This document shows positions 9,815-18,610 of a stretch of DNA of 32,000 nt, piece by piece. The position numbers and the translations under genes are program-made. A model generated the notes under the pieces. The model searched no databases. It saw nothing but the letters and a program-made list of their open reading frames with translations, and was not told the DNA's origin. Location: assembly GCF_037902255.1 (NCBI RefSeq), contig NZ_CP147990.1, positions 780,001 to 812,000 of the forward strand, written 5' to 3'. The stretch comes from Candidatus Electrothrix sp. GW3-4 (GTDB lineage Bacteria > Desulfobacterota > Desulfobulbia > Desulfobulbales > Desulfobulbaceae). The stretch's first letter is position 1. Each line of letters opens with the position of its first letter.

Positions 9815-10783
9815 ATGGGTTCTTCCCCATGCGAGGAAGATCCGATTGATCCGAGAACAGGCCAAGAAATCATGCACAGACTCCAGGGGGATCTCCAGAT
9901 CCTGACCATCGCCAAATATCTCTTTCGTCTCCGGGCGGAAACAACGATCCGGCTGCCGCCGGACAAGGGCAGCGCCTTTCACGGTGCCTTTGGCCACGCC
10001 CTGAAGCGTATCTCCCCCTTTTATTACCAAGAGATCTTTGCACCGGGCCATGACAGGGCCAAGCCCAAACCCTTTGTCCTCCTGCCCCCTCTGGAGAGCA
10101 AGGAACACTATGCTGCTGGCCAGCCGTTGCACTGTGAGCTGACCCTGTTCGGCAGGGCAGGGCAGTTTTTCCCGATCTGTCACGCAGCTGTGGAGTTTCT
10201 TGGCAGGGAGATGGGGCTGGGCCTGAACCGGGGAAAATTTACTGTTGAAGGCGTAGACAAGGCCTGCCCGTCAGGTAGCAATTCATCTGCGGATCCAGCT
10301 GCTCTTACCTGTCTGGAGATTGTGCAAACCTGTCCGATTCCGATCAGAAACGATTCCCTGACCATCCACCTGCCCACCCGCCTGCGCCTCAAAAGCGACG
10401 GCCATCTGCTCTCCCAGCCCCCGGAGTTTCACCTTTTTTTTGCCAGATTGGTCGGGCGGATCAATACCCTGTCCAGCCTGTACGGTGGTGGTAAGATGGT
10501 AGGACCGGAACAACGCCAACAGCTGCTCAGCCAGGCCCAGGAGCGCATCCGCCTGGATGCGCAGAGAACCGATGCCTGCTGGCAGGACCTGCCCCGTTTT
10601 TCCGGGCGCCAGCAGCAATGGATGAAATTCGGCGGCCTGCTCGGGTCTGTGACCTGGCAGGGGACGCCAGAGGACTTCCGGCCCTTTCTGCCCTATCTGG
10701 CCATTGGGGAGTGGATCCATGTGGGCGGCAAGAGCAGTTTTGGTTTGGGGAAGTATCTGGTTGAACGGCAAAGCGAAATTTGA
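9815..10783 (+). CDS. cas6: CRISPR pre-crRNA endoribonuclease Cas6 (RAMP)
   Basis: N-terminal RLPPDKGSAFHGAFGHALK and the C-terminal glycine-rich RAMP loop WIHVGGKSSFGLGKY. Lies directly upstream of the leader and array on the same strand. The true start may be the ATG at 9872 (MHRLQGDLQ...). Confidence 0.75.
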   Translation: MGSSPCEEDPIDPRTGQEIMHRLQGDLQILTIAKYLFRLRAETTIRLPPDKGSAFHGAFGHALKRISPFYYQEIFAPGHDRAKPKPFVLLPPLESKEHYAAGQPLHCELTLFGRAGQFFPICHAAVEFLGREMGLGLNRGKFTVEGVDKACPSGSNSSADPAALTCLEIVQTCPIPIRNDSLTIHLPTRLRLKSDGHLLSQPPEFHLFFARLVGRINTLSSLYGGGKMVGPEQRQQLLSQAQERIRLDAQRTDACWQDLPRFSGRQQQWMKFGGLLGSVTWQGTPEDFRPFLPYLAIGEWIHVGGKSSFGLGKYLVERQSEI

Positions 10784-11029
10784 CCTGTTCTGCGCTGCAA
10801 CGCTGCCTGGAAGGGCTGAAAAAATGCTTGGCAGAGGGCATGTTCCGGTTTACAGTGCAATTTGCGCGAACCTCTTTGGGACAGAAAAAGCCGGGAGGTT
10901 CGCGATGCCCACGGTATGGGGGATAGAGTGGAAAACAGGGGTTTGATGCGGCCTTTGTTGCCTGCTTTTGAGGAGGTTCGCGGAAAATGCGTTTTTTGTA
11001 GTGCGGAAACAGGGGATTGCAGGGCGACA
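10784..11029 (+). promoter_or_regulatory. CRISPR leader
   Basis: Noncoding stretch between cas6 and the first perfect repeat, with the degenerate repeat at the opposite end of the array. Contains GAGGTTCGCG twice in direct orientation (10895-10904, 10973-10982) and once inverted (10865-10874). Confidence 0.5.
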
Positions 11030-11980
11030 GTTGTCTTTTGACCGGTTTTGGAACGGGGTTACGACAGGTTGATACTTGTTAATTCAAGTCACGGTGTGAG
11101 GTTGTCTTTTGACCGGTTTTGGAACGGGGTTACGACCTCGACCATGATGTCCCTACACACCAGTTTGACGTTGTCTTTTGACCGGTTTTGGAACGGGGTT
11201 ACGACCCTTGATAAACATTCTCAATTCTTTAGATAAAGCAGTTGTCTTTTGACCGGTTTTGGAACGGGGTTACGACCCGTTACATATCAGTGCCCTGAGA
11301 GAGTTCTGACGTTGTCTTTTGACCGGTTTTGGAACGGGGTTACGACCCAGGCTCTCCCGCTCAGAGAGGGCCGCCTTACCTAGTTGTCTTTTGACCGGTT
11401 TTGGAACGGGGTTACGACCAGCTTGGCCCGTTGTTCCGAGCCGCCCGCTGTGTGTTGTCTTTTGACCGGTTTTGGAACGGGGTTACGACCCCGCCTCTCT
11501 TGGCGGCGTGATAATGGATACCGTTGTCTTTTGACCGGTTTTGGAACGGGGTTACGACCCAGGCTCTCCCGCTCAGAGAGGGCCGCCTTACCTAGTTGTC
11601 TTTTGACCGGTTTTGGAACGGGGTTACGACCAGCTTGGCCCGTTGTTCCGAGCCGCCCGCTGTGTGTTGTCTTTTGACCGGTTTTGGAACGGGGTTACGA
11701 CCAATAATTGGTTGGTGTTTCCCGATTCCAATAATGTTGTCTTTTGACCGGTTTTGGAACGGGGTTACGACTTTTGTTACCTCTGGATTATTTGCTCATT
11801 TACCGGTTGTCTTTTGACCGGTTTTGGAACGGGGTTACGACGATCGGGCCGATAGTCATAAAGACGTTGATACTAGTTGTCTTTTGACCGGTTTTGGAAC
11901 GGGGTTACGACTCAATACCTTCAAGTTTATCAAGAGCATGCTTTGTTGTCTTTTGACCGGTTTTGGAACGGGGTTATGAG
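11030..11980 (+). CRISPR. CRISPR array: 14 repeats of 36 nt (GTTGTCTTTTGACCGGTTTTGGAACGGGGTTACGAC), 13 spacers of 33-36 nt
   Basis: Repeat starts at 11030, 11101, 11170, 11241, 11311, 11383, 11454, 11523, 11595, 11666, 11736, 11806, 11876 and 11945. Repeats 1-13 are identical. The last repeat (11945-11980) ends TTATGAG instead of TTACGAC. Spacers 5 and 6 recur as spacers 8 and 9. Confidence 0.95.
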
Positions 11981-12061
11981 GTAGGGGCGGTACCTCTGTG
12001 TTCGCCCAATGTGTACCACAATCGAGGTTGTTCCAGGGAAGACACGCAGGTCTTCCCCTAC
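11981..12061 (+). other. Conserved post-repeat block, copy 1 (candidate structured RNA / 5' UTR element)
   Basis: GTAGGGGCGGTACCTCTGTGTTCGCCCAATGTGTACCACAATCGAGGTTGTTCCA-GGGAAGAC-acgcag-GTCTTCCC-CTAC directly abuts the terminal repeat. Near-identical copy at 14383-14463 and a diverged copy at 16723-16797. Confidence 0.6.
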
Positions 12062-12194
12062 ATGGTTTCCCGGATTACAACGGATTGTAGGGGCGATCCT
12101 TTTGATCGCCCATTGTGATCCTCCTTTGTCATCGACCATAATAGGAGGTTGACAGGGCAGGCACAGGGGCCTGCACCCTACAAAGAGAAAAAAT

Positions 12195-13886
12195 ATGAAA
12201 ATTCCTTACGGTATCAGTAATTTCAGATCTCTTATCACCGAGGGATATCTCTATGTCGATAAAACACCTTTCATAGCAACCCTGGAAGAGCAGGGAAAAT
12301 ACAACATCCTGCTCCGTCCCCGCCGTTTCGGCAAAACCCTCTTTCTCTCCACCCTCCGCTCGTATTATGACATCCTGTGCAAGGATGAATTTGAGTCCCT
12401 TTTCGGCCATCTCGTTATCGGTCAAAGGCCCACCCCGCTGAAAAACAGCTATCAGATTCTCGCCTTTGACTTCAGCGGTATTGAAACCAGCAGCGAAGAA
12501 GATATCCGGCGCGGGTTCAACCGCAGAGTGGAAACCGCCCTGAAAAAATTTCTTAGGCGTTATGGCTATCCTTTGGAAACGGATCGGATTATAGAAAAAC
12601 AGACCAGCCCTGCCGATAAAATAGATTATTTTTTCACAGTACTGGAAGAAGCGAATATCTACCTGCTCATTGATGAATACGACCATTTTGCCAACGCCAT
12701 CCTTGGTGAAAGCCTGGAACTGTTCAGCGCAATCGTGGGCAAGGGCGGCTTTGTCCGGGCCTTTTACGAAGTCATCAAGACCGCGACCATGGAGGGTATT
12801 GTTGATCGCCTCCTGATCACCGGGGTGACCTCTATTACTCTGGACAGCATGACCAGCGGTTTTAACATTGGCAAGAATCTTTCCTTTGCCCAGGAACTGA
12901 ATCAGGCAATGGGCTTTACTGCCCAGGAAACTGAAGCAATGGTGCAACCTCTTGTTGAGGTCTGCGGGTTGGATAAGCAGGAAATGATGCAGAACCTGGC
13001 GAATTGGTATAACGGCTACCGCTTCAGTAGTCGCGCCGCCGAGAAGGTGTTTAATCCAGACATGGTTCTGTATTTCCTTGATAGCTTTAATAAGGAGGGA
13101 TGCCTCTGGCCAGAGCAGATGCTGGATGACAACATTGCCTCGGATTACGGTAAGATCATGCGGCTGTTCGGGATCGGGGATCGGGAGAGCAATTTCCAGA
13201 TCCTTGAGGAACTGCTGGTCAACGGTGAAATTGTGGGACGGCATAAGGGCAAATTGGATCTGGATACGCACAAACCCTTTGAGCGTGACGACTTTATCAG
13301 TCTGCTCCTCTACATGGGCTTTATCACCATCAGCGGTACAATGCTTGGCCAGTTGCGTTATGTGGTGCCCAACTATGTGATTCAAAAGCTGTATTACGGC
13401 TATTTCAGGGCAGAAATTGAGCAGCGGGCCCAAATCAGGGTGGAGAAACATACCCTGGAAAATGCTGTGGCCGAACTGGCCCTGCACGATAATATCACTC
13501 CACTGCTTGAAGAGATCCGCAAGGTCCTGACCCTGTTTTCCAACCGTGATTTCATGCGCATGGATGAAAAACACATCAAGACTGTGATCCTGACCCTGCT
13601 GTATCAGTCCGAGGTCTATTTCATCCGCAGCGAGGCTGAAGTGAACAAGCGTTACCCGGATATCCTCCTGCTGGAGCGCAAGCCTATTGCGGTGCGCTAC
13701 CAGTTCCTCTTTGAGCTGAAGTTCAGCAAGAAAAAGGAGGGGGACAAGGGGCTGGAGGCAAAACGGGCCGAGGGGATTGCCCAGATCAGGGCCTATCAGG
13801 AGCTCGCCGATATCAGGCGTCTGCCCAAACTGCAATCCTACCTCCTGCTCACCGATGGCACCGAGATTGAAGCGATTGCAGTGTGA
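12195..13886 (+). CDS. AAA-ATPase-like / PD-(D/E)XK nuclease (PDDEXK_9, DUF1703-type) protein, paralog 1
   Basis: N-terminus MKIPYGISNFRSLITEGYLYVDKTPFI and the P-loop LRPRRFGKTLFLS. Walker B YLLIDEYD. C-terminal nuclease motif YPDILLL...FLFELKFSK (D...ExK). 563 aa. Confidence 0.85.
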   Translation: MKIPYGISNFRSLITEGYLYVDKTPFIATLEEQGKYNILLRPRRFGKTLFLSTLRSYYDILCKDEFESLFGHLVIGQRPTPLKNSYQILAFDFSGIETSSEEDIRRGFNRRVETALKKFLRRYGYPLETDRIIEKQTSPADKIDYFFTVLEEANIYLLIDEYDHFANAILGESLELFSAIVGKGGFVRAFYEVIKTATMEGIVDRLLITGVTSITLDSMTSGFNIGKNLSFAQELNQAMGFTAQETEAMVQPLVEVCGLDKQEMMQNLANWYNGYRFSSRAAEKVFNPDMVLYFLDSFNKEGCLWPEQMLDDNIASDYGKIMRLFGIGDRESNFQILEELLVNGEIVGRHKGKLDLDTHKPFERDDFISLLLYMGFITISGTMLGQLRYVVPNYVIQKLYYGYFRAEIEQRAQIRVEKHTLENAVAELALHDNITPLLEEIRKVLTLFSNRDFMRMDEKHIKTVILTLLYQSEVYFIRSEAEVNKRYPDILLLERKPIAVRYQFLFELKFSKKKEGDKGLEAKRAEGIAQIRAYQELADIRRLPKLQSYLLLTDGTEIEAIAV

Positions 13887-13941
13887 GGGACCAGGCAGCG
13901 TACCCCTTGACCCGGATTTCATCCTGCTGTACGATGAAATT

Positions 13942-14042
13942 TGATGACCTGGTAAAAAGTCAGAAATTAGCAAATCGCTAACGACAACTCAGTAAGTTAC
14001 AATACGAAATATCGCGAAATCGGACTTTTTACGAATCCATCA
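13942..14042 (+). mobile_element. 101-bp MITE-like element with ~20-bp imperfect terminal inverted repeats
   Basis: Ends are TGATGACCTGGTAAAAAGTC ... GACTTTTTACGAATCCATCA. It is absent from the otherwise collinear paralogous site (16318-16330: GATGAAATTTGTCGTTTG). Flanked by AATT/AAATT on both sides. Second copy at 18466-18567. Confidence 0.7.
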
Positions 14043-14345
14043 AATTTGTTGTTTGCAGAGGCGGGCGTTGAAAAACGGCTGAAATGGCGAAAAAATAAAA
14101 GATGAATAAAATCAATAACCACGGCTCGTAAGTAAGAGTGGGGATGAAAAAGGAGGAAAAACAAGGAAAGTATTGTATGTTTAACAGGTTACGCGAAAGT
14201 GGGAGGTCGTTATGGGCCGCACATTGATTTCATTGAGAAAAATGGAATTTTTCAGGGTTTGGAGAGCGTCGGGGAGTCGTCGAAGCGGCATGAGCCGCAA
14301 ATGGCCATCTAGGTATCCGATTTCATTAAGCGAAAAAAGGGTACT

Positions 14346-14382
14346 GTTGTGGACTTGACCGGTTTTGGAACGGGGTTACGAG
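14346..14382 (+). repeat. Solitary degenerate CRISPR repeat (no spacers)
   Basis: GTTGTGGACTTGACCGGTTTTGGAACGGGGTTACGAG compared with the array repeat: the 3' 27 nt are intact except the last base, and the 5' part has CTTT changed to GGACT. It shares the ...GAG end with the degenerate terminal repeat of the array and is followed by the same conserved block. Confidence 0.8.
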
Positions 14383-14463
14383 GTAGGGGCGGTACTTCTG
14401 TGTTCGCCCAATGTGTACCACAATCGAGATTGTTCCAGGGAAGACACGCAGGTCTTCCCCTAC
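14383..14463 (+). other. Conserved post-repeat block, copy 2
   Basis: Near-identical to 11981-12061 with a few substitutions (TACTTCTG vs TACCTCTG; GAGATTG vs GAGGTTG). Same GGGAAGAC/GTCTTCCC hairpin. Confidence 0.6.
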
Positions 14464-14578
14464 ATTATTTCCCGGATTATAACGGTGTTCAGGGGCAACC
14501 TGTATTGAACGAAAAACGAGTCCCCCAAAAGCCCTGAAGGGGCTGTATCTATTAGCGAGGGGTAAGGTCCTGGTTTTC

Positions 14579-16270
14579 ATGAAAATACCGTACGGAGAAA
14601 GCAATTTTAAAAAAATCATCACCCAGGGGTTTCTCTATATTGATAAAACATCTTTCATAGAAACCCTGGAGCAGAACGGCAGCTACAACATCCTGCTCCG
14701 TCCCCGCCGTTTCGGCAAAACCCTCTTTCTCTCTACCCTCCGCTCGTATTACGACATCCGCTGCAAGGATGAATTTGAGTCCCTTTTCGGCCAGCTCGTT
14801 ATCGGTCAAAGGCCCACCCCGCTGAAAAACAGCTATCAGATTCTCGCCTTTGACTTCAGCGGTATTGAAACCAGCAGCGAAGAAGATATCCGGCGCGGGT
14901 TCAACCGCAGAGTGGAAACCGCCCTGAAAAAATTTCTCAGGCGTTATGGCTATCCTTTGGAAACGGATCGGATTATAGAAAAACAGACCAGCCCTGCCGA
15001 TAAAATAGATTATTTTTTCACAGTACTGGAAGAAGCGAATATCTACCTGCTCATTGATGAATACGACCATTTTGCCAACGCCATCCTTGGTGAAAGCCTG
15101 GAGCTCTTCTCTGCTATCGTGGGTAAGGGCGGCTTTGTCCGGGCCTTTTACGAAGTCATCAAGACCGCGACCATGGAGGGCATTGTTGATCGTCTCCTGA
15201 TCACCGGCGTGACCTCCATCACCCTGGACAGTATGACCAGCGGCTTTAACATCGGCGACAACATTACCTATCATCAGGATTTCAATCAGGCAATGGGCTT
15301 TACTGCCCAGGAAACCGAGGAGATGATCCAGCCCTTTGTCGAGGTCTGCGAGCTGAATCAGCAGGAGGTGATGCAGACCCTGGCGAATTGGTATAACGGT
15401 TACCGTTTCAGCAGCCGGGCAGAGGAAAAGATTTTCAATCCTGACATGGTCTTGTATTTTCTCAGATCTTTTGATTCGGTCGAATGCCGTTGGCCAGAGC
15501 GGATGCTGGACGATAATATCGCCTCGGATTACGGCAAGATCATGCGGCTGTTCGGGATCGGGGATCGGGAAGGCAATTTTGCCATCCTTGAAGAGTTACT
15601 GGTCAATGGGGAGATCATCGGGCACCATAAGGGCAGGCTTGATCTGGATACGCACAAACCCTTTGAGCGTGACGATTTTATCAGTCTGCTCCTCTATATG
15701 GGCTTTATCACTATCAATGATACTGTGCTGGCCGATTTGCGCTACCGTGTGCCAAATTATGTGATTGAACAGCTCTATTATCGTTACTTCAAAACAGAAA
15801 TTGAACTTCGATCGCAAGTCACCCTGGATAATGGCCGCCTGAAAGAAGCTGTCAGGCAACTTGCCCTGCACGATAATATCACTCCACTGCTTGAAGAGAT
15901 CCGCAAGGTCCTGGCCCTGTTCTCCAACCGTGACTTCATGCGCATGGATGAAAAGCACATCAAGGCCGTGATCCTGACCCTGCTGTATCAGTCCGAGGTC
16001 TATTTCATCCGCAGCGAGGCTGAAGTGAACAAGCGTTACCCGGATATCCTCCTGCTGGAGCGCAAGCCTATTGCGGTGCGCTACCAGTTCCTCTTTGAGC
16101 TGAAGTTCAGCAAGAAAAAGGAGGGGGACAAGGGGCTGGAGGCAAAACGGGCCGAGGGGATTGCCCAGATCAGGGCCTATCAGGAGCTCGCCGATATCAG
16201 GCGTCTGCCCAAACTGCAATCCTACCTCCTGCTCACCGATGGCATCGAGATTGAAGCGATTGCGGTGTGA
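14579..16270 (+). CDS. AAA-ATPase-like / PD-(D/E)XK nuclease (PDDEXK_9-type) protein, paralog 2
   Basis: Same length (563 aa) and same motifs as paralog 1. Residues ~36-226 and ~441-563 are nearly identical to paralog 1, while residues 1-35 and ~227-440 are diverged. Confidence 0.85.
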   Translation: MKIPYGESNFKKIITQGFLYIDKTSFIETLEQNGSYNILLRPRRFGKTLFLSTLRSYYDIRCKDEFESLFGQLVIGQRPTPLKNSYQILAFDFSGIETSSEEDIRRGFNRRVETALKKFLRRYGYPLETDRIIEKQTSPADKIDYFFTVLEEANIYLLIDEYDHFANAILGESLELFSAIVGKGGFVRAFYEVIKTATMEGIVDRLLITGVTSITLDSMTSGFNIGDNITYHQDFNQAMGFTAQETEEMIQPFVEVCELNQQEVMQTLANWYNGYRFSSRAEEKIFNPDMVLYFLRSFDSVECRWPERMLDDNIASDYGKIMRLFGIGDREGNFAILEELLVNGEIIGHHKGRLDLDTHKPFERDDFISLLLYMGFITINDTVLADLRYRVPNYVIEQLYYRYFKTEIELRSQVTLDNGRLKEAVRQLALHDNITPLLEEIRKVLALFSNRDFMRMDEKHIKAVILTLLYQSEVYFIRSEAEVNKRYPDILLLERKPIAVRYQFLFELKFSKKKEGDKGLEAKRAEGIAQIRAYQELADIRRLPKLQSYLLLTDGIEIEAIAV

Positions 16271-16624
16271 TGGACCAGGCAGCGTACCCCTTGACCCGGA
16301 TTTCATCCTGCTGTACGATGAAATTTGTCGTTTGTACAAGCAGGCGCCGGAAAGTGGTTAAAATGGTCAAAAATAAAAAGCTGAATAATATCAATTACCA
16401 CGGCCCGTCCGGGTAAATGGATTTGAAAAAGGAGGGGAAGTAGGGAAAACAACGTATGTTTAATGTGTTACGCGAATAATGGAGGTCGTTATGGGCCGCA
16501 CATTGATTTCATTGGGAAAAACGGGATTTTTCAGGGTTTGGAACGCGTCGGGGAGTCGTCGAAGCGGCATGGGCCGCAAATGGGTATGTAGGTCTCTGAT
16601 TTCGCTTTGTGAAAAAGGGGTAGA

Positions 16625-16661
16625 GGTGTCGACTTGACCGGTTTTGGAACTGGGTTAGGAC
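16625..16661 (+). repeat. Second solitary, more degenerate CRISPR repeat-like sequence
   Basis: GGTGTCGACTTGACCGGTTTTGGAACTGGGTTAGGAC retains the TTGACCGGTTTTGGAAC core. It is preceded by the same leader-like sequence as the 14346 copy. Confidence 0.6.
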
Positions 16662-16722
16662 GGAGGGGCGACCGGCGGTCGCCCTTTGCCGGTGTACGGA
16701 GGCATGACGATTCCGTGATGTT

Positions 16723-16797
16723 GTAGGCCGGACCTCTGTGTCCGCCCAATATGTACCACAACCGAGGTGATTCAGGGCACGGCACGCCGTTCCCTTA
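16723..16797 (+). other. Conserved post-repeat block, copy 3 (diverged)
   Basis: GTAGGCCGGACCTCTGTGTCCGCCCAATATGTACCACAACCGAGGTGATTCA-GGGCACGG-cacg-CCGTTCCC-TTAC. It is separated from the repeat-like sequence by a 62-nt insertion carrying its own hairpin (GGGCGACCGgcGGTCGCCC). Confidence 0.5.
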
Positions 16798-16988
16798 CGA
16801 GATCCGTCCCTCTGCCCGTTAGATGCACCAGGGTGTTACCCTTTACTGATGTGTATCCCCCCTTTGGGGTTTGGTGCCAGCTCGAACCCGTGGTGCTCTG
16901 TATCAGGCGGAAAACGAAAGAAAAAGCCCCAGAGGGGCTGTATATATCTAGCCCAGGGTAACGCCCTGGATGTCCTAAGGAGGAGACG

Positions 16989-17474
16989 ATGATCGAACTG
17001 GAAACCGGTGACCCTTGGAACGGAGAAAATAAACCCGCTTCTTTCTCCCGATTTCTTCTTCCCTTTTCCTACACCCTGAACCCGGCCAATCCTGCTGCGG
17101 TCAAATCGGATCAGCTCTGCTTTCGGCAAATCCAACCGAAAAAAGACTTTGAGCGGGAACGTCTCCTTTATTTCACCGCAGAAACGGCCAACGTGCTCTT
17201 TCAACGGGCAATCTGGGCCGAGATTGACGCGGATTTCTGGCAGAATGCGGGATTGAGCGGTCCCTTCTCTTTTCAATCTGTTAACCGTAATACTGAACAG
17301 CCGATTAAGGTCGCTCTGACCCCACCCCGGTTAGTCCTCTTTGAAGGATGCTCGGAAAACCCTTCTCTTCATCCGACCCTTTGTCACGGTTTTCTCATTC
17401 TGGATACCTTCTTTCCTGATATTTGTCTTTCAGGTGAGCGTCCCGGCTTGGATGACGTCCGATCAGCGTCATGA
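16989..17474 (+). CDS. Hypothetical protein (161 aa), probably the 3'-truncated N-terminal part of a larger protein
   Basis: Strong ribosome-binding site (AAGGAGGAGACG-ATG) and no recognisable motif. The ORF ends exactly where base composition switches to the AT-rich cassette (~17470). Confidence 0.5.
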   Translation: MIELETGDPWNGENKPASFSRFLLPFSYTLNPANPAAVKSDQLCFRQIQPKKDFERERLLYFTAETANVLFQRAIWAEIDADFWQNAGLSGPFSFQSVNRNTEQPIKVALTPPRLVLFEGCSENPSLHPTLCHGFLILDTFFPDICLSGERPGLDDVRSAS

Positions 17475-18399: not shown

Positions 18400-18465
18400 G
18401 TTTTTGTTGTCTGTGCCGAACAGGAAAACATGTGACGGAGAAAAATAATGGAAAAAAATGAATTT

Positions 18466-18567
18466 TGATGGTTTCGTAAAAAGTCCAATTTTGCGAAAAA
18501 GTCGTATTGTAACTCGTTGAGTTGCCGTTAGCGAATTGCTGTTTTCTGACTTTTTACCAGGTCATCA
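18466..18567 (-). mobile_element. Second copy of the MITE-like element, inverted relative to 13942-14042
   Basis: TGATGGTTTCGTAAAAAGTC ... GACTTTTTACCAGGTCATCA. It aligns end to end with the reverse complement of the first copy with scattered substitutions. AT-rich flanks (AATTT / ATTTT). Confidence 0.7.
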
Positions 18568-18610
18568 ATTTTGGTTTACCCACATGAAACAGCGAGGAGC
18601 CGAAAAATAG

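What the first reader, a model, noticed from the sequence alone, without database searches (positions are those of the whole stretch)
11981..16797. Post-repeat block contains a hairpin with compensatory base changes between copies
Copies 1 and 2 have GGGAAGAC-acgcag-GTCTTCCC (12036-12057). Copy 3 has GGGCACGG-cacg-CCGTTCCC (16775-16794). Several stem positions differ on both arms yet pairing is kept, with one mismatch. That pattern is expected for a selected RNA or DNA structure and not for drift.

The 5' part (GGGCGG...CGCCC vs GGCCGGA...TCCGCCC) can also pair in all copies, and the linear segment CCCAAT(G/A)TGTACCACAA(T/C)CGAGG is conserved. This argues that the block is functional, for example as a structured 5' UTR, a small RNA, or a protein or recombinase binding site.
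Basis: seen in the sequence. Interest (0 to 1): 0.6.

Follow-up and report, generated by a model that had tools for sequence, protein, structure and literature searches.

The report
REP-like hairpin pair capping CRISPR arrays
The "post-repeat block" is a pair of small palindromic repeat elements (GTAG-tagged REP type) that is scattered through cable-bacteria genomes and sits directly after the last repeat of their CRISPR arrays; its stems do co-vary, but as a property of the whole repeat family, not of a dedicated regulatory RNA.

Summary
The hairpins are at the stated coordinates and pairing is kept between different stem sequences.

The block is not a locus-specific RNA. It is a head-to-head dimer of GTAG-tagged, REP-like hairpins: GTAG-hairpin A, a 28-nt linker, then hairpin B-CTAC.
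- A covariance model of the dimer finds about 40 further sites in this genome.
- It gives 26-105 or more matches in each of 13 other Candidatus Electrothrix genomes.
- It gives 0-7 matches in the other genera searched.

Across 96 distinct copies, 96.6% of stem cells pair and 12 of 16 pairs show changes on both sides. Copy 3's hairpin B is an exact member of another subfamily (a module swap). Copies 1 and 2 carry one genuine in-place C-G to A-T change.

The three copies are the trailers of three CRISPR units: one 14-repeat array and two "empty" arrays (conserved leader plus a single repeat). They belong to a decayed type III locus.

The less ordinary point is position. In 44 of 47 distinct cases in the genus, such a hairpin starts within 4 nt of the terminal or solitary repeat. 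The same holds for a second, unrelated repeat family. I infer a structured cap on the leftover "tag plus trailer" RNA. This is untested.

Earlier notes of this scan report similar hairpin caps on other DNA.

The parts
9815..10783 (+). cas6 gene directly upstream of the array
   Evidence: Pfam CRISPR_Cas6 PF10040, E 6e-15. Orthologue in G009.
10784..11029 (+). Leader type 1 of the array
   Evidence: Conserved upstream of the first repeat of the cas6-proximal arrays in G010, G005 and G009.
11030..11980 (+). CRISPR array of 14 repeats of 36 nt; the last repeat (11945-11980) is degenerate at its 3' end
   Evidence: Repeat family D1. The repeat core occurs only in this locus of the genome.
11981..12061 (+). 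Block copy 1, a head-to-head GTAG-REP dimer: hairpin A 11985-12007, linker 12008-12035, hairpin B 12036-12057, CTAC 12058-12061
   Evidence: Model R1 gives 102.5 bits. Fold -34.3 kcal/mol, z -3.4.
12087..12181 (+). Second, more diverged GTAG dimer in trailer 1. Its 3' hairpin GGGCAGGC..GCCTGCACCC-TAC is a dispersed repeat.
   Evidence: R1 hit with E 0.003. BLAST hits to 12152-12184 at seven other genome sites. Fold z -4.2.
12195..13886 (+). Cargo gene 1: AAA-ATPase_like plus PDDEXK_9 protein, 563 aa
   Evidence: Pfam PF09820 and PF08011. 88% identical to gene 2.
14200..14345 (+). Leader type 2 in front of solitary repeat 1
   Evidence: Nearly identical to the leaders of real multi-spacer arrays in G009, and similar to those of G010 and G005.
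14346..14382 (+). Solitary CRISPR repeat 1 (subtype 2), that is, an array reduced to one repeat
14383..14463 (+). Block copy 2 (hairpin B at 14438-14459)
   Evidence: 97% identical to copy 1 over the 67-nt core and 93% over 142 nt. R1 gives 99.9 bits.
14579..16270 (+). Cargo gene 2: AAA-ATPase_like plus PDDEXK_9 protein, 563 aa
16480..16625 (+). Leader type 2 in front of solitary repeat 2
16626..16661 (+). Solitary CRISPR repeat 2, with two substitutions in the conserved 3' part
16662..16684 (+). Junction hairpin of copy 3: degenerate tag GGAG plus GGGCGACC-GGC-GGTCGCCC, the commonest junction hairpin in the genus
   Evidence: Fold -19.1 kcal/mol, z -3.6.
16723..16798 (+). Block copy 3 (hairpin A 16726-16747, hairpin B 16775-16794, tag decayed to TTAC)
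   Evidence: 79% identical to copy 1. R1 gives 75.8 bits.
16989..17474 (+). Truncated remnant (161 aa) of the first gene of the type III effector operon
   Evidence: 74% identical over 157 aa to the N-terminus of a 540-aa protein that heads the Cas10/RAMP operon in G009.

Best explanation
The block is a head-to-head dimer of GTAG-tagged REP-like palindromes. It consists of GTAG plus a GC-rich 8-bp hairpin, a roughly 28-nt linker, and a second hairpin of the same kind in inverted orientation ending in CTAC.

It belongs to a repeat family that has expanded in the genus Candidatus Electrothrix. The stems co-vary because every member of the family must keep its hairpin, while the distal stem base pairs are free to differ between subfamilies. 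Hairpin modules are exchanged between copies.

In this window the three copies are the trailers of three CRISPR units of a decayed type III locus. These are one array with 13 spacers and two empty arrays, each a conserved leader plus a single repeat.

Shown: the family membership, the covariation, the leader-repeat-trailer anatomy, and the tight junction with the last repeat.

Inferred:
- The element spreads or is homogenised as a hairpin in single-stranded DNA, in the manner of REPs. No enzyme was identified.
- When the array is transcribed and Cas6 cuts the final repeat, hairpin A folds directly behind the 8-nt tag. The leftover 'tag plus trailer' RNA would then be structured and unfit as a guide, and the 3' side of the precursor would be capped.
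For: Family membership:
- Model R1, built from 7 copies, finds about 40 further distinct sites in the own genome. They have the same GTAG...CTAC architecture but varied stems and linkers.
- It gives 26-105 or more matches in each of 13 other Electrothrix genomes, with only 114 candidates scored per genome. It gives 0-7 matches in the other genera searched.
- 7.5% of GTAGGG sites are followed by a hairpin, against about 1.2% for control hexamers.
- 24 of 39 dimers lie outside a crude ORF mask that covers 84% of the genome. Flanking genes are mostly co-directional or convergent. This matches the published description of GTAG REPs and their head-to-head heterodimers with conserved spacers (PMC3733652).

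Covariation:
- 96.6% of cells paired, 12 of 16 pairs with changes on both sides, 0 of 500 shuffles as high.

Module swap:
- Copy 3's hairpin B occurs letter for letter in G003, G005, G006 and G010.

Trailer anatomy:
- The sequence upstream of both solitary repeats matches the leaders of real arrays in G009 and G010.
- Sister loci carry Cas6, a Cas10 palm domain, RAMP proteins and RT-Cas1.

Junction:
- 44 of 47 distinct flanks after terminal or solitary repeats carry a GTAG-like tag within 4 nt (38 at 0 nt), with 16 different hairpin sequences. Only 1 of 124 internal spacers does.
- Tag plus 37 nt folds at a mean of -17.6 kcal/mol, against -6.0 for real spacers.
- The same abutment occurs for an unrelated repeat family, with 17 sites in 7 of 14 genomes.
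Against: - None of the 8 Y1-transposase genes of this genome has a GTAGGG hairpin within 500 bp.
- The single-copy RAYT-like gene of the genus is flanked by a different palindrome family. The defining REP-RAYT link is therefore missing.
- The hairpins in this window are partly decayed: a bulge and a G.T in copies 1 and 2, mismatches and a lost tag in copy 3, whose fold z-score is only -0.9. The cognate effector operon is truncated here. Any RNA-level role is probably no longer exercised in this genome.
- There are no expression data. The Cas6 cut site is assumed from general knowledge of Cas6 systems.
- The covariation alignment was fitted to the structure and contains related rows.
Confidence: 0.75

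Rival explanations
1. Selected cap. This rival is not exclusive with the REP identity. The hairpin is kept at the first positions after the last repeat because it neutralises the extraneous crRNA of a class 1 array (8-nt tag plus trailer as a false guide), and/or blocks 3'-to-5' exonucleases at the end of the pre-crRNA. REP-type hairpins would simply be the raw material that gets recruited.
For: - The position is kept while the sequence turns over: 16 different hairpins at offsets 0, 1 or 3 nt.
- It occurs independently in two unrelated repeat families.
- The would-be guide is far more structured than real spacers.
- No insertion-target consensus exists in the 5' flanks of the dispersed copies, so sequence-targeted insertion is unlikely.
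- For class 1 systems the extraneous crRNA is expected from the last repeat (PMC13187072).
- A hairpin that sequesters the guide of that RNA was shown to work in type II-C (PMC12080349).
Against: - No RNA or binding data exist.
- The junction could have arisen only twice and been copied along with array duplications, with gene conversion among REPs changing the hairpin.
- Some arrays of the second family lack the cap (666259 and 3771917).
- REPs in general accumulate at the 3' ends of transcription units.
Confidence: 0.35
2. The block is a dedicated cis-regulatory RNA or structured 5' UTR (or a small RNA) controlling the downstream AAA-ATPase or effector genes.
For: - All three copies lie upstream of and co-directional with a gene.
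- In relatives, the last hairpin ends about 13 nt before the ATG of AAA-ATPase genes.
Against: - The same dimers occur at about 40 unrelated intergenic sites, in both orientations.
- Only 4 of about 14 AAA-ATPase paralogues have them upstream, and those 4 all follow CRISPR repeats.
- Downstream genes differ between sites: ATPase, effector operon, ParE-like toxin, DUF4160.
- No Rfam family matches.
Confidence: 0.07
3. The block is a recombination boundary. Repeat plus hairpin acts like an integron attC-type site, letting gene cassettes move in and out of array ends.
For: - In relatives, slots bounded by a CRISPR repeat plus GTAG hairpin hold varied cargo: AAA-ATPase/PDDEXK_9, a ParE-like toxin pair, DUF4160/DUF2442, and a YhgA-like nuclease.
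- The window looks like the G010 locus with the segment between two repeat-plus-block units deleted.
Against: - No integrase or dedicated recombinase was found next to the sites.
- The two units in the window share their whole length, including the 3' flank, at 79-93% identity. This fits tandem duplication or homologous exchange between repeats better than site-specific cassette insertion.
Confidence: 0.1
4. The block is a crRNA-like regulator (CreA/CreR type). The solitary repeat plus conserved 'pseudo-spacer' would guide the effector to a cellular target.
For: A solitary repeat with its own leader followed by conserved sequence resembles mini-arrays. This resemblance is from my own knowledge of CreTA/CreR systems and was not tested.
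Against: - The 'pseudo-spacer' is a strongly folded palindrome.
- It is present at dozens of genomic sites, so it would be self-targeting.
- The cognate effector operon is truncated in this genome.
Confidence: 0.03

Closest known systems
GTAG-tagged REPs and their head-to-head dimers (BIME/REPIN-type elements; Di Nocera et al. 2013, PMC3733652; Nunvar et al. 2010, PMC2817692)
   Same: - A 20-30-nt GC-rich imperfect palindrome with an unpaired GTAG at one end.
- Dimers with the GTAG tags on the outside and a 10-45-nt, partly conserved spacer.
- Heterodimers whose partners have different stems.
- Tens to hundreds of dispersed, mostly extragenic copies, lying between co-directional or convergent genes.
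   Different: - No RAYT gene flanked by these hairpins was found.
- The genus's single-copy Y1 transposase is flanked by another palindrome family.
- The striking placement exactly at the 3' edge of the last CRISPR repeat is not in the GTAG/CGTC REP paper I read (PMC3733652), and a three-term paper search for REPs with CRISPR array trailers found none.
Hairpins that suppress extraneous crRNA (type II-A and VI-B leader-repeat hairpins; type II-C guide-sequestering hairpin; PMC13187072, PMC12080349)
   Same: A stable hairpin occupies the guide portion next to the one repeat of the array that has no spacer of its own.
   Different: - Here the array is class 1 (type III), so the extra repeat is the last one and the hairpin lies in the trailer.
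- The hairpin is a member of a mobile-type repeat family.
- No functional test exists.
Stand-alone repeat units and mini-arrays near cas genes (CreR/CreA-type elements)
   Same: Single CRISPR repeats with a leader-like upstream sequence lie in front of cas or accessory genes.
   Different: - The sequence after the repeat is a dispersed palindrome, not a partial match to a promoter.
- Sister species have ordinary multi-spacer arrays at the same places, so these are collapsed or unfilled arrays.

Membership tests
GTAG-tagged REP / BIME / REPIN | Short (20-40 nt) GC-rich palindrome able to form a stem-loop | tested here: met
   8-bp stems with 3-6-nt loops in all three copies. The family alignment is 96.6% paired.
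GTAG-tagged REP / BIME / REPIN | Unpaired GTAG tag at one end of the palindrome | tested here: met
   GTAG at 11981, 14383 and 16723. CTAC at 12058 and 14460. The tag is decayed to TTAC at 16795. The dispersed copies carry the same tags.
GTAG-tagged REP / BIME / REPIN | Many dispersed copies in the genome | tested here: met
   About 40 distinct dimer sites and about 45 single palindromes in the own genome. 26-105 or more matches per Electrothrix genome.
GTAG-tagged REP / BIME / REPIN | Dimers in inverted orientation (tags outside) with a 20-100-nt spacer | tested here: met
   All listed sites read GTAG-hairpin-linker-hairpin-CTAC.
GTAG-tagged REP / BIME / REPIN | Predominantly extragenic, between co-directional or convergent genes | tested here: met
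   24 of 39 sites lie outside a crude ORF mask that covers 84% of the genome. Flanking genes: 30 co-directional, 6 convergent, 3 divergent. The mask is rough.
GTAG-tagged REP / BIME / REPIN | A cognate RAYT (Y1 transposase) gene flanked by the same REPs | tested here: not met
   8 Y1_Tnp genes in the own genome, none with GTAGGG or CCCTAC within 500 bp. Across the genus, the conserved single-copy Y1 gene is flanked by CCCAGGGTT..AACCCTGGG and GTCCC..GGGAC palindromes instead.
CRISPR array trailer | Lies directly 3' of the last repeat, on the side opposite a conserved leader | tested here: met
   Leaders are conserved across arrays and species on the 5' side. The degenerate last repeat faces the block. 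The 3' 27 nt of the repeat, including the presumed 8-nt tag, are conserved between repeat subtypes.
Extraneous-crRNA-suppressing hairpin | Stable structure within the guide portion next to the spacer-less repeat | tested here: met
   Mean MFE -17.6 against -6.0 kcal/mol, with 76% of trailers below the 1st percentile of spacers. 39 of 47 have a hairpin starting within 12 nt.
Extraneous-crRNA-suppressing hairpin | Disrupting the hairpin increases formation, loading or activity of the extraneous crRNA | not testable with these tools
   Needs expression and binding experiments.
crRNA-like regulator (CreA/CreR type) | A cognate effector is present and the pseudo-spacer is partly complementary to a regulated target | tested here: not met
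   The effector operon behind copy 3 is truncated to 161 aa. RAMP genes elsewhere in the genome sit among arrays of the other repeat family. The pseudo-spacer is a dispersed palindrome. A specific target was not searched for.
Any Rfam RNA family | Match at the family's gathering score | tested here: not met
   No match in the 32-kb window.

The most novel reading that the evidence does not exclude
In cable bacteria, REP-type hairpins have been recruited as a standard 'end cap' of class 1 CRISPR arrays. The hairpin sits at guide position +1 after the last repeat, where it would neutralise the extraneous crRNA and close the pre-crRNA. Together with the repeat it would mark the borders of slots in which nuclease and toxin-antitoxin genes are exchanged. 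This would be the first trailer-side counterpart, in a type III system, of the leader-repeat hairpins known from types II and VI.
Probability: 0.3. Interest if true: 0.6.

Novelty: new member of a known kind. Interest (0 to 1): 0.4.

Why it matters
The finding shows how apparent covariation between a few local copies can come from a repeat family and not from a dedicated RNA.

The rule found along the way is more useful. A palindromic repeat element abuts the last CRISPR repeat in two unrelated repeat families across a genus. This gives a concrete, testable case for how class 1 arrays may deal with the spacer-less last repeat. Published work on extraneous crRNAs has addressed only types II and VI.

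It also helps annotation of cable-bacteria genomes. Solitary repeats with leaders are empty arrays, and the CRISPR unit includes a recognisable trailer.

Tried and rejected
- An Rfam scan of the window found nothing.
- BLAST of the block against the own genome found only the three local copies for the core. This first suggested a locus-specific element, until the structure-aware model showed the dispersed family (against 45).
- A MAFFT alignment of mixed hairpin subfamilies put the stems out of register. I therefore built the model from 7 homogeneous copies and let Infernal realign the rest.
- I looked for a RAYT flanked by GTAG hairpins in the own genome and in 13 relatives and found none. 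The Y1 gene has other palindromes around it.
- I looked for a target-site consensus 5' of the dispersed copies, such as the GAC that ends both CRISPR repeats. There is none beyond a pyrimidine bias, so I dropped sequence-targeted insertion.
- I tested whether the dimer is the generic 5' end of AAA-ATPase/PDDEXK_9 genes. It is not: 10 of about 14 paralogues lack it.
- The promoter and terminator consensus scan was uninformative. The hairpins lack T tracts.
- My first guess that the repeat was a Cas13b-type repeat was dropped once cas6 and the type III genes were seen.
- I considered G.U against A.C asymmetry to separate RNA-level from DNA-level selection. There were too few informative mismatches, and both strands are mixed in the alignment.
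Full report
**What is there**

The window holds cas6 (9815-10783; Pfam PF10040). It is followed by a CRISPR array of fourteen 36-nt repeats (11030-11980).

Two further single repeats lie at 14346-14382 and about 16626-16661.

- GGGAAGAC/GTCTTCCC at 12036-12057 and 14438-14459.
- GGGCACGG/CCGTTCCC at 16775-16794, with one C.T mismatch.

The 5' hairpin pairs in all copies, but imperfectly. The linear segment occurs only three times in the 4.64-Mb genome.

**Anatomy of the block**

Each copy reads GTAG, then hairpin A (GGGCGG..CCGCCC type), a 28-nt linker, hairpin B, then CTAC. The copies lie at 11981-12061, 14383-14463 and 16723-16798.

Read on the other strand, hairpin B has the same format as hairpin A. 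The block is therefore two inverted palindromes with their GTAG tags on the outside. In copies 1 and 2 the two halves can even pair with each other into one long hairpin (-34.3 kcal/mol, z -3.4).

Copy 1 is followed by a second, more diverged dimer (12087-12181). Copy 3 is preceded by an extra junction hairpin (16662-16684).

**It is a dispersed repeat family**

BLAST found only the three local copies of the core. A covariance model built from seven copies gave a different picture:
- About 40 further distinct sites in the own genome. All have the GTAG...CTAC layout, with stems such as GGGCGAAC, GGGCAGGC, GGGCAGAC, GGGCAAAC and GGGTAGAC and linkers of 10-45 nt.
- 26 to more than 100 matches in every one of 13 other genomes of the genus. 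These are lower bounds, because only 114 candidates per genome were scored.
- 0-7 matches in the other genera searched.

Contig titles identify the genus as Candidatus Electrothrix.

Other evidence for the family in the own genome:
- 7.5% of GTAGGG sites are followed by a hairpin, against about 1.2% for control hexamers.
- About 45 sites are single perfect palindromes of the type GTAG-GGG(G/A)CACGGC..GCCGTG(C/T)CCC-TAC.
- The dimers are depleted from ORFs: 24 of 39 lie outside a crude mask that covers 84% of the genome.
- They lie mostly between co-directional or convergent genes.

All of this matches the published description of GTAG-tagged REPs. That description includes head-to-head heterodimers with conserved spacers (Di Nocera et al. 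2013, PMC3733652).

One defining link is missing. No Y1 transposase gene is flanked by these hairpins. The conserved single-copy Y1 gene of the genus is flanked by a different palindrome family.

**Covariation**

The alignment came from 128 model hits (96 distinct rows). On it:
- 96.6% of stem cells form standard pairs, against 83.2% in shuffles.
- 12 of 16 pairs show changes on both sides.
- 214 cells carry double changes, against 58 expected.
- No shuffle of 500 reaches these values.
- Sliding the 3' partner by 1-3 columns collapses pairing to 34-58%.

There are caveats. The alignment was fitted to the structure, many sites enter on both strands, and the rows are related. The conclusion is nevertheless robust: the family keeps its hairpins while the distal stem pairs vary.

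- Copy 3's hairpin B is an exact member of a subfamily that recurs, mismatch included, in G003, G005, G006 and G010. It has a 4-nt loop instead of a 6-nt loop. It is a swapped module, not a set of substitutions.
- Copies 1 and 2 differ from the GGGCAGAC/GTCTGCCC consensus of their own subfamily by C-G to A-T at stem position 4. That variant was not seen among the other copies listed. It is a plausible true compensatory event.

**What the three copies are**

The 150 nt upstream of both single repeats are almost identical to the leaders of genuine multi-spacer arrays in G009. They are also similar to those in G010 and G005.

The single repeats are therefore arrays reduced to, or never grown beyond, one repeat. 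The block is the array trailer.

Three observations give the direction of transcription:
- The leaders lie on the 5' side.
- The degenerate last repeat faces the block.
- The 3' 27 nt of the repeat are the part conserved between repeat subtypes.

Sister loci read: cas6, array, trailer, AAA-ATPase, array, RT-Cas1, array, toxin-antitoxin, single repeat, Cas10/RAMP operon, single repeat, AAA-ATPase, and so on.

In the window, the ORF behind copy 3 (16989-17474) is the first 161 aa of the 540-aa protein that heads that operon (74% identity). This locus is a decayed type III system. That fits the substitutions seen in its single repeats and hairpins.

**The unusual part: position**

In the genomes sampled there are 47 distinct sequences that follow a terminal or single repeat.
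- 44 of them have a GTAG-like tag within 4 nt (38 at 0 nt).
- 39 have a hairpin starting within 12 nt.
- These involve 16 different hairpin sequences.
- Only 1 of 124 internal spacers starts that way.

The 8-nt tag plus 37 nt folds at a mean of -17.6 kcal/mol, against -6.0 for real spacers (Mann-Whitney p 7e-20).

The same abutment occurs behind an unrelated repeat family (..GAAGAGGGTATTRAGAC) with its own AT-rich leader. It is seen at four exact-junction sites in this genome (a fifth array end, at 3761822, has a degenerate repeat) and at 17 sites in 7 of 14 genomes.

The dispersed copies have no common 5' flank. Sequence-targeted insertion is therefore unlikely. The alternatives are that the junction is inherited with array duplications, or that it is selected.

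Published work places the extraneous crRNA of class 1 arrays at the last repeat (PMC13187072). It also shows that a hairpin sequestering the guide neutralises such an RNA in type II-C (PMC12080349).

From this I infer, at about 0.35, that the hairpin serves as a cap of that kind. No experiment or expression data bear on it.

**Verdict**

The block is a new member of a known kind of element, the GTAG-REP dimers, sitting in CRISPR trailers. The inference of a dedicated RNA or UTR is not supported.

Earlier notes of this scan on the same genome and on other genomes describe repeat-bounded cargo slots and hairpin elements capping arrays. I used them as leads only.

Noticed in passing
window 16989-17474: The 161-aa ORF is the N-terminal remnant of the first gene of a type III (Cas10/RAMP) effector operon that is intact in sister species. 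The rest of the operon is gone here, so the cas6-linked array has no cognate effector nearby.
   Followed up: yes
window 14200-14382 and 16480-16661: Both solitary repeats carry a full array leader that is about 95% identical to the leaders of multi-spacer arrays in a sister species. They are empty or collapsed arrays, not stray repeat fragments.
   Followed up: yes
window 12195-13886 and 14579-16270; own genome 3795381 and 3800582: AAA-ATPase_like/PDDEXK_9 genes sit directly behind a CRISPR repeat plus GTAG hairpin in two unrelated CRISPR repeat families (4 of about 14 paralogues). In relatives the same slots hold a ParE-like toxin pair, DUF4160/DUF2442 and a YhgA-like nuclease.
   Followed up: partly
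window 16828-16844, 16950-16969, 14553-14572: Copies of a second palindrome family (CCAGGGT..ACCCTGG type) lie in the trailers. The same family flanks the single-copy RAYT-like Y1 transposase gene of the genus (own genome 398923-399264), so that is probably the true REP-RAYT pair of these genomes.
   Followed up: partly
window 11310-11490 and 11522-11702: A 181-bp stretch of the array covering three repeats, two whole spacers and parts of two more is duplicated exactly 212 bp downstream. This is evidence of recombination between repeats.
   Followed up: no
own genome 3141440, 3761822, 3792119, 3797227, 3802153: Arrays and solitary repeats of a second repeat family end in the same kind of GTAG hairpin. 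Some arrays (666259, 3771917) do not.
   Followed up: partly
window 13937-14047 and 18456-18577: Inverted-repeat element of about 100 bp, present after gene 1, absent at the matching site after gene 2, and present again inverted at about 18.5 kb. It looks MITE-like.
   Followed up: no
L051:6731-8947 (G009): The sister species encodes an RT-Cas1 fusion (738 aa) inside the same locus, so the system probably acquires spacers from RNA.
   Followed up: no
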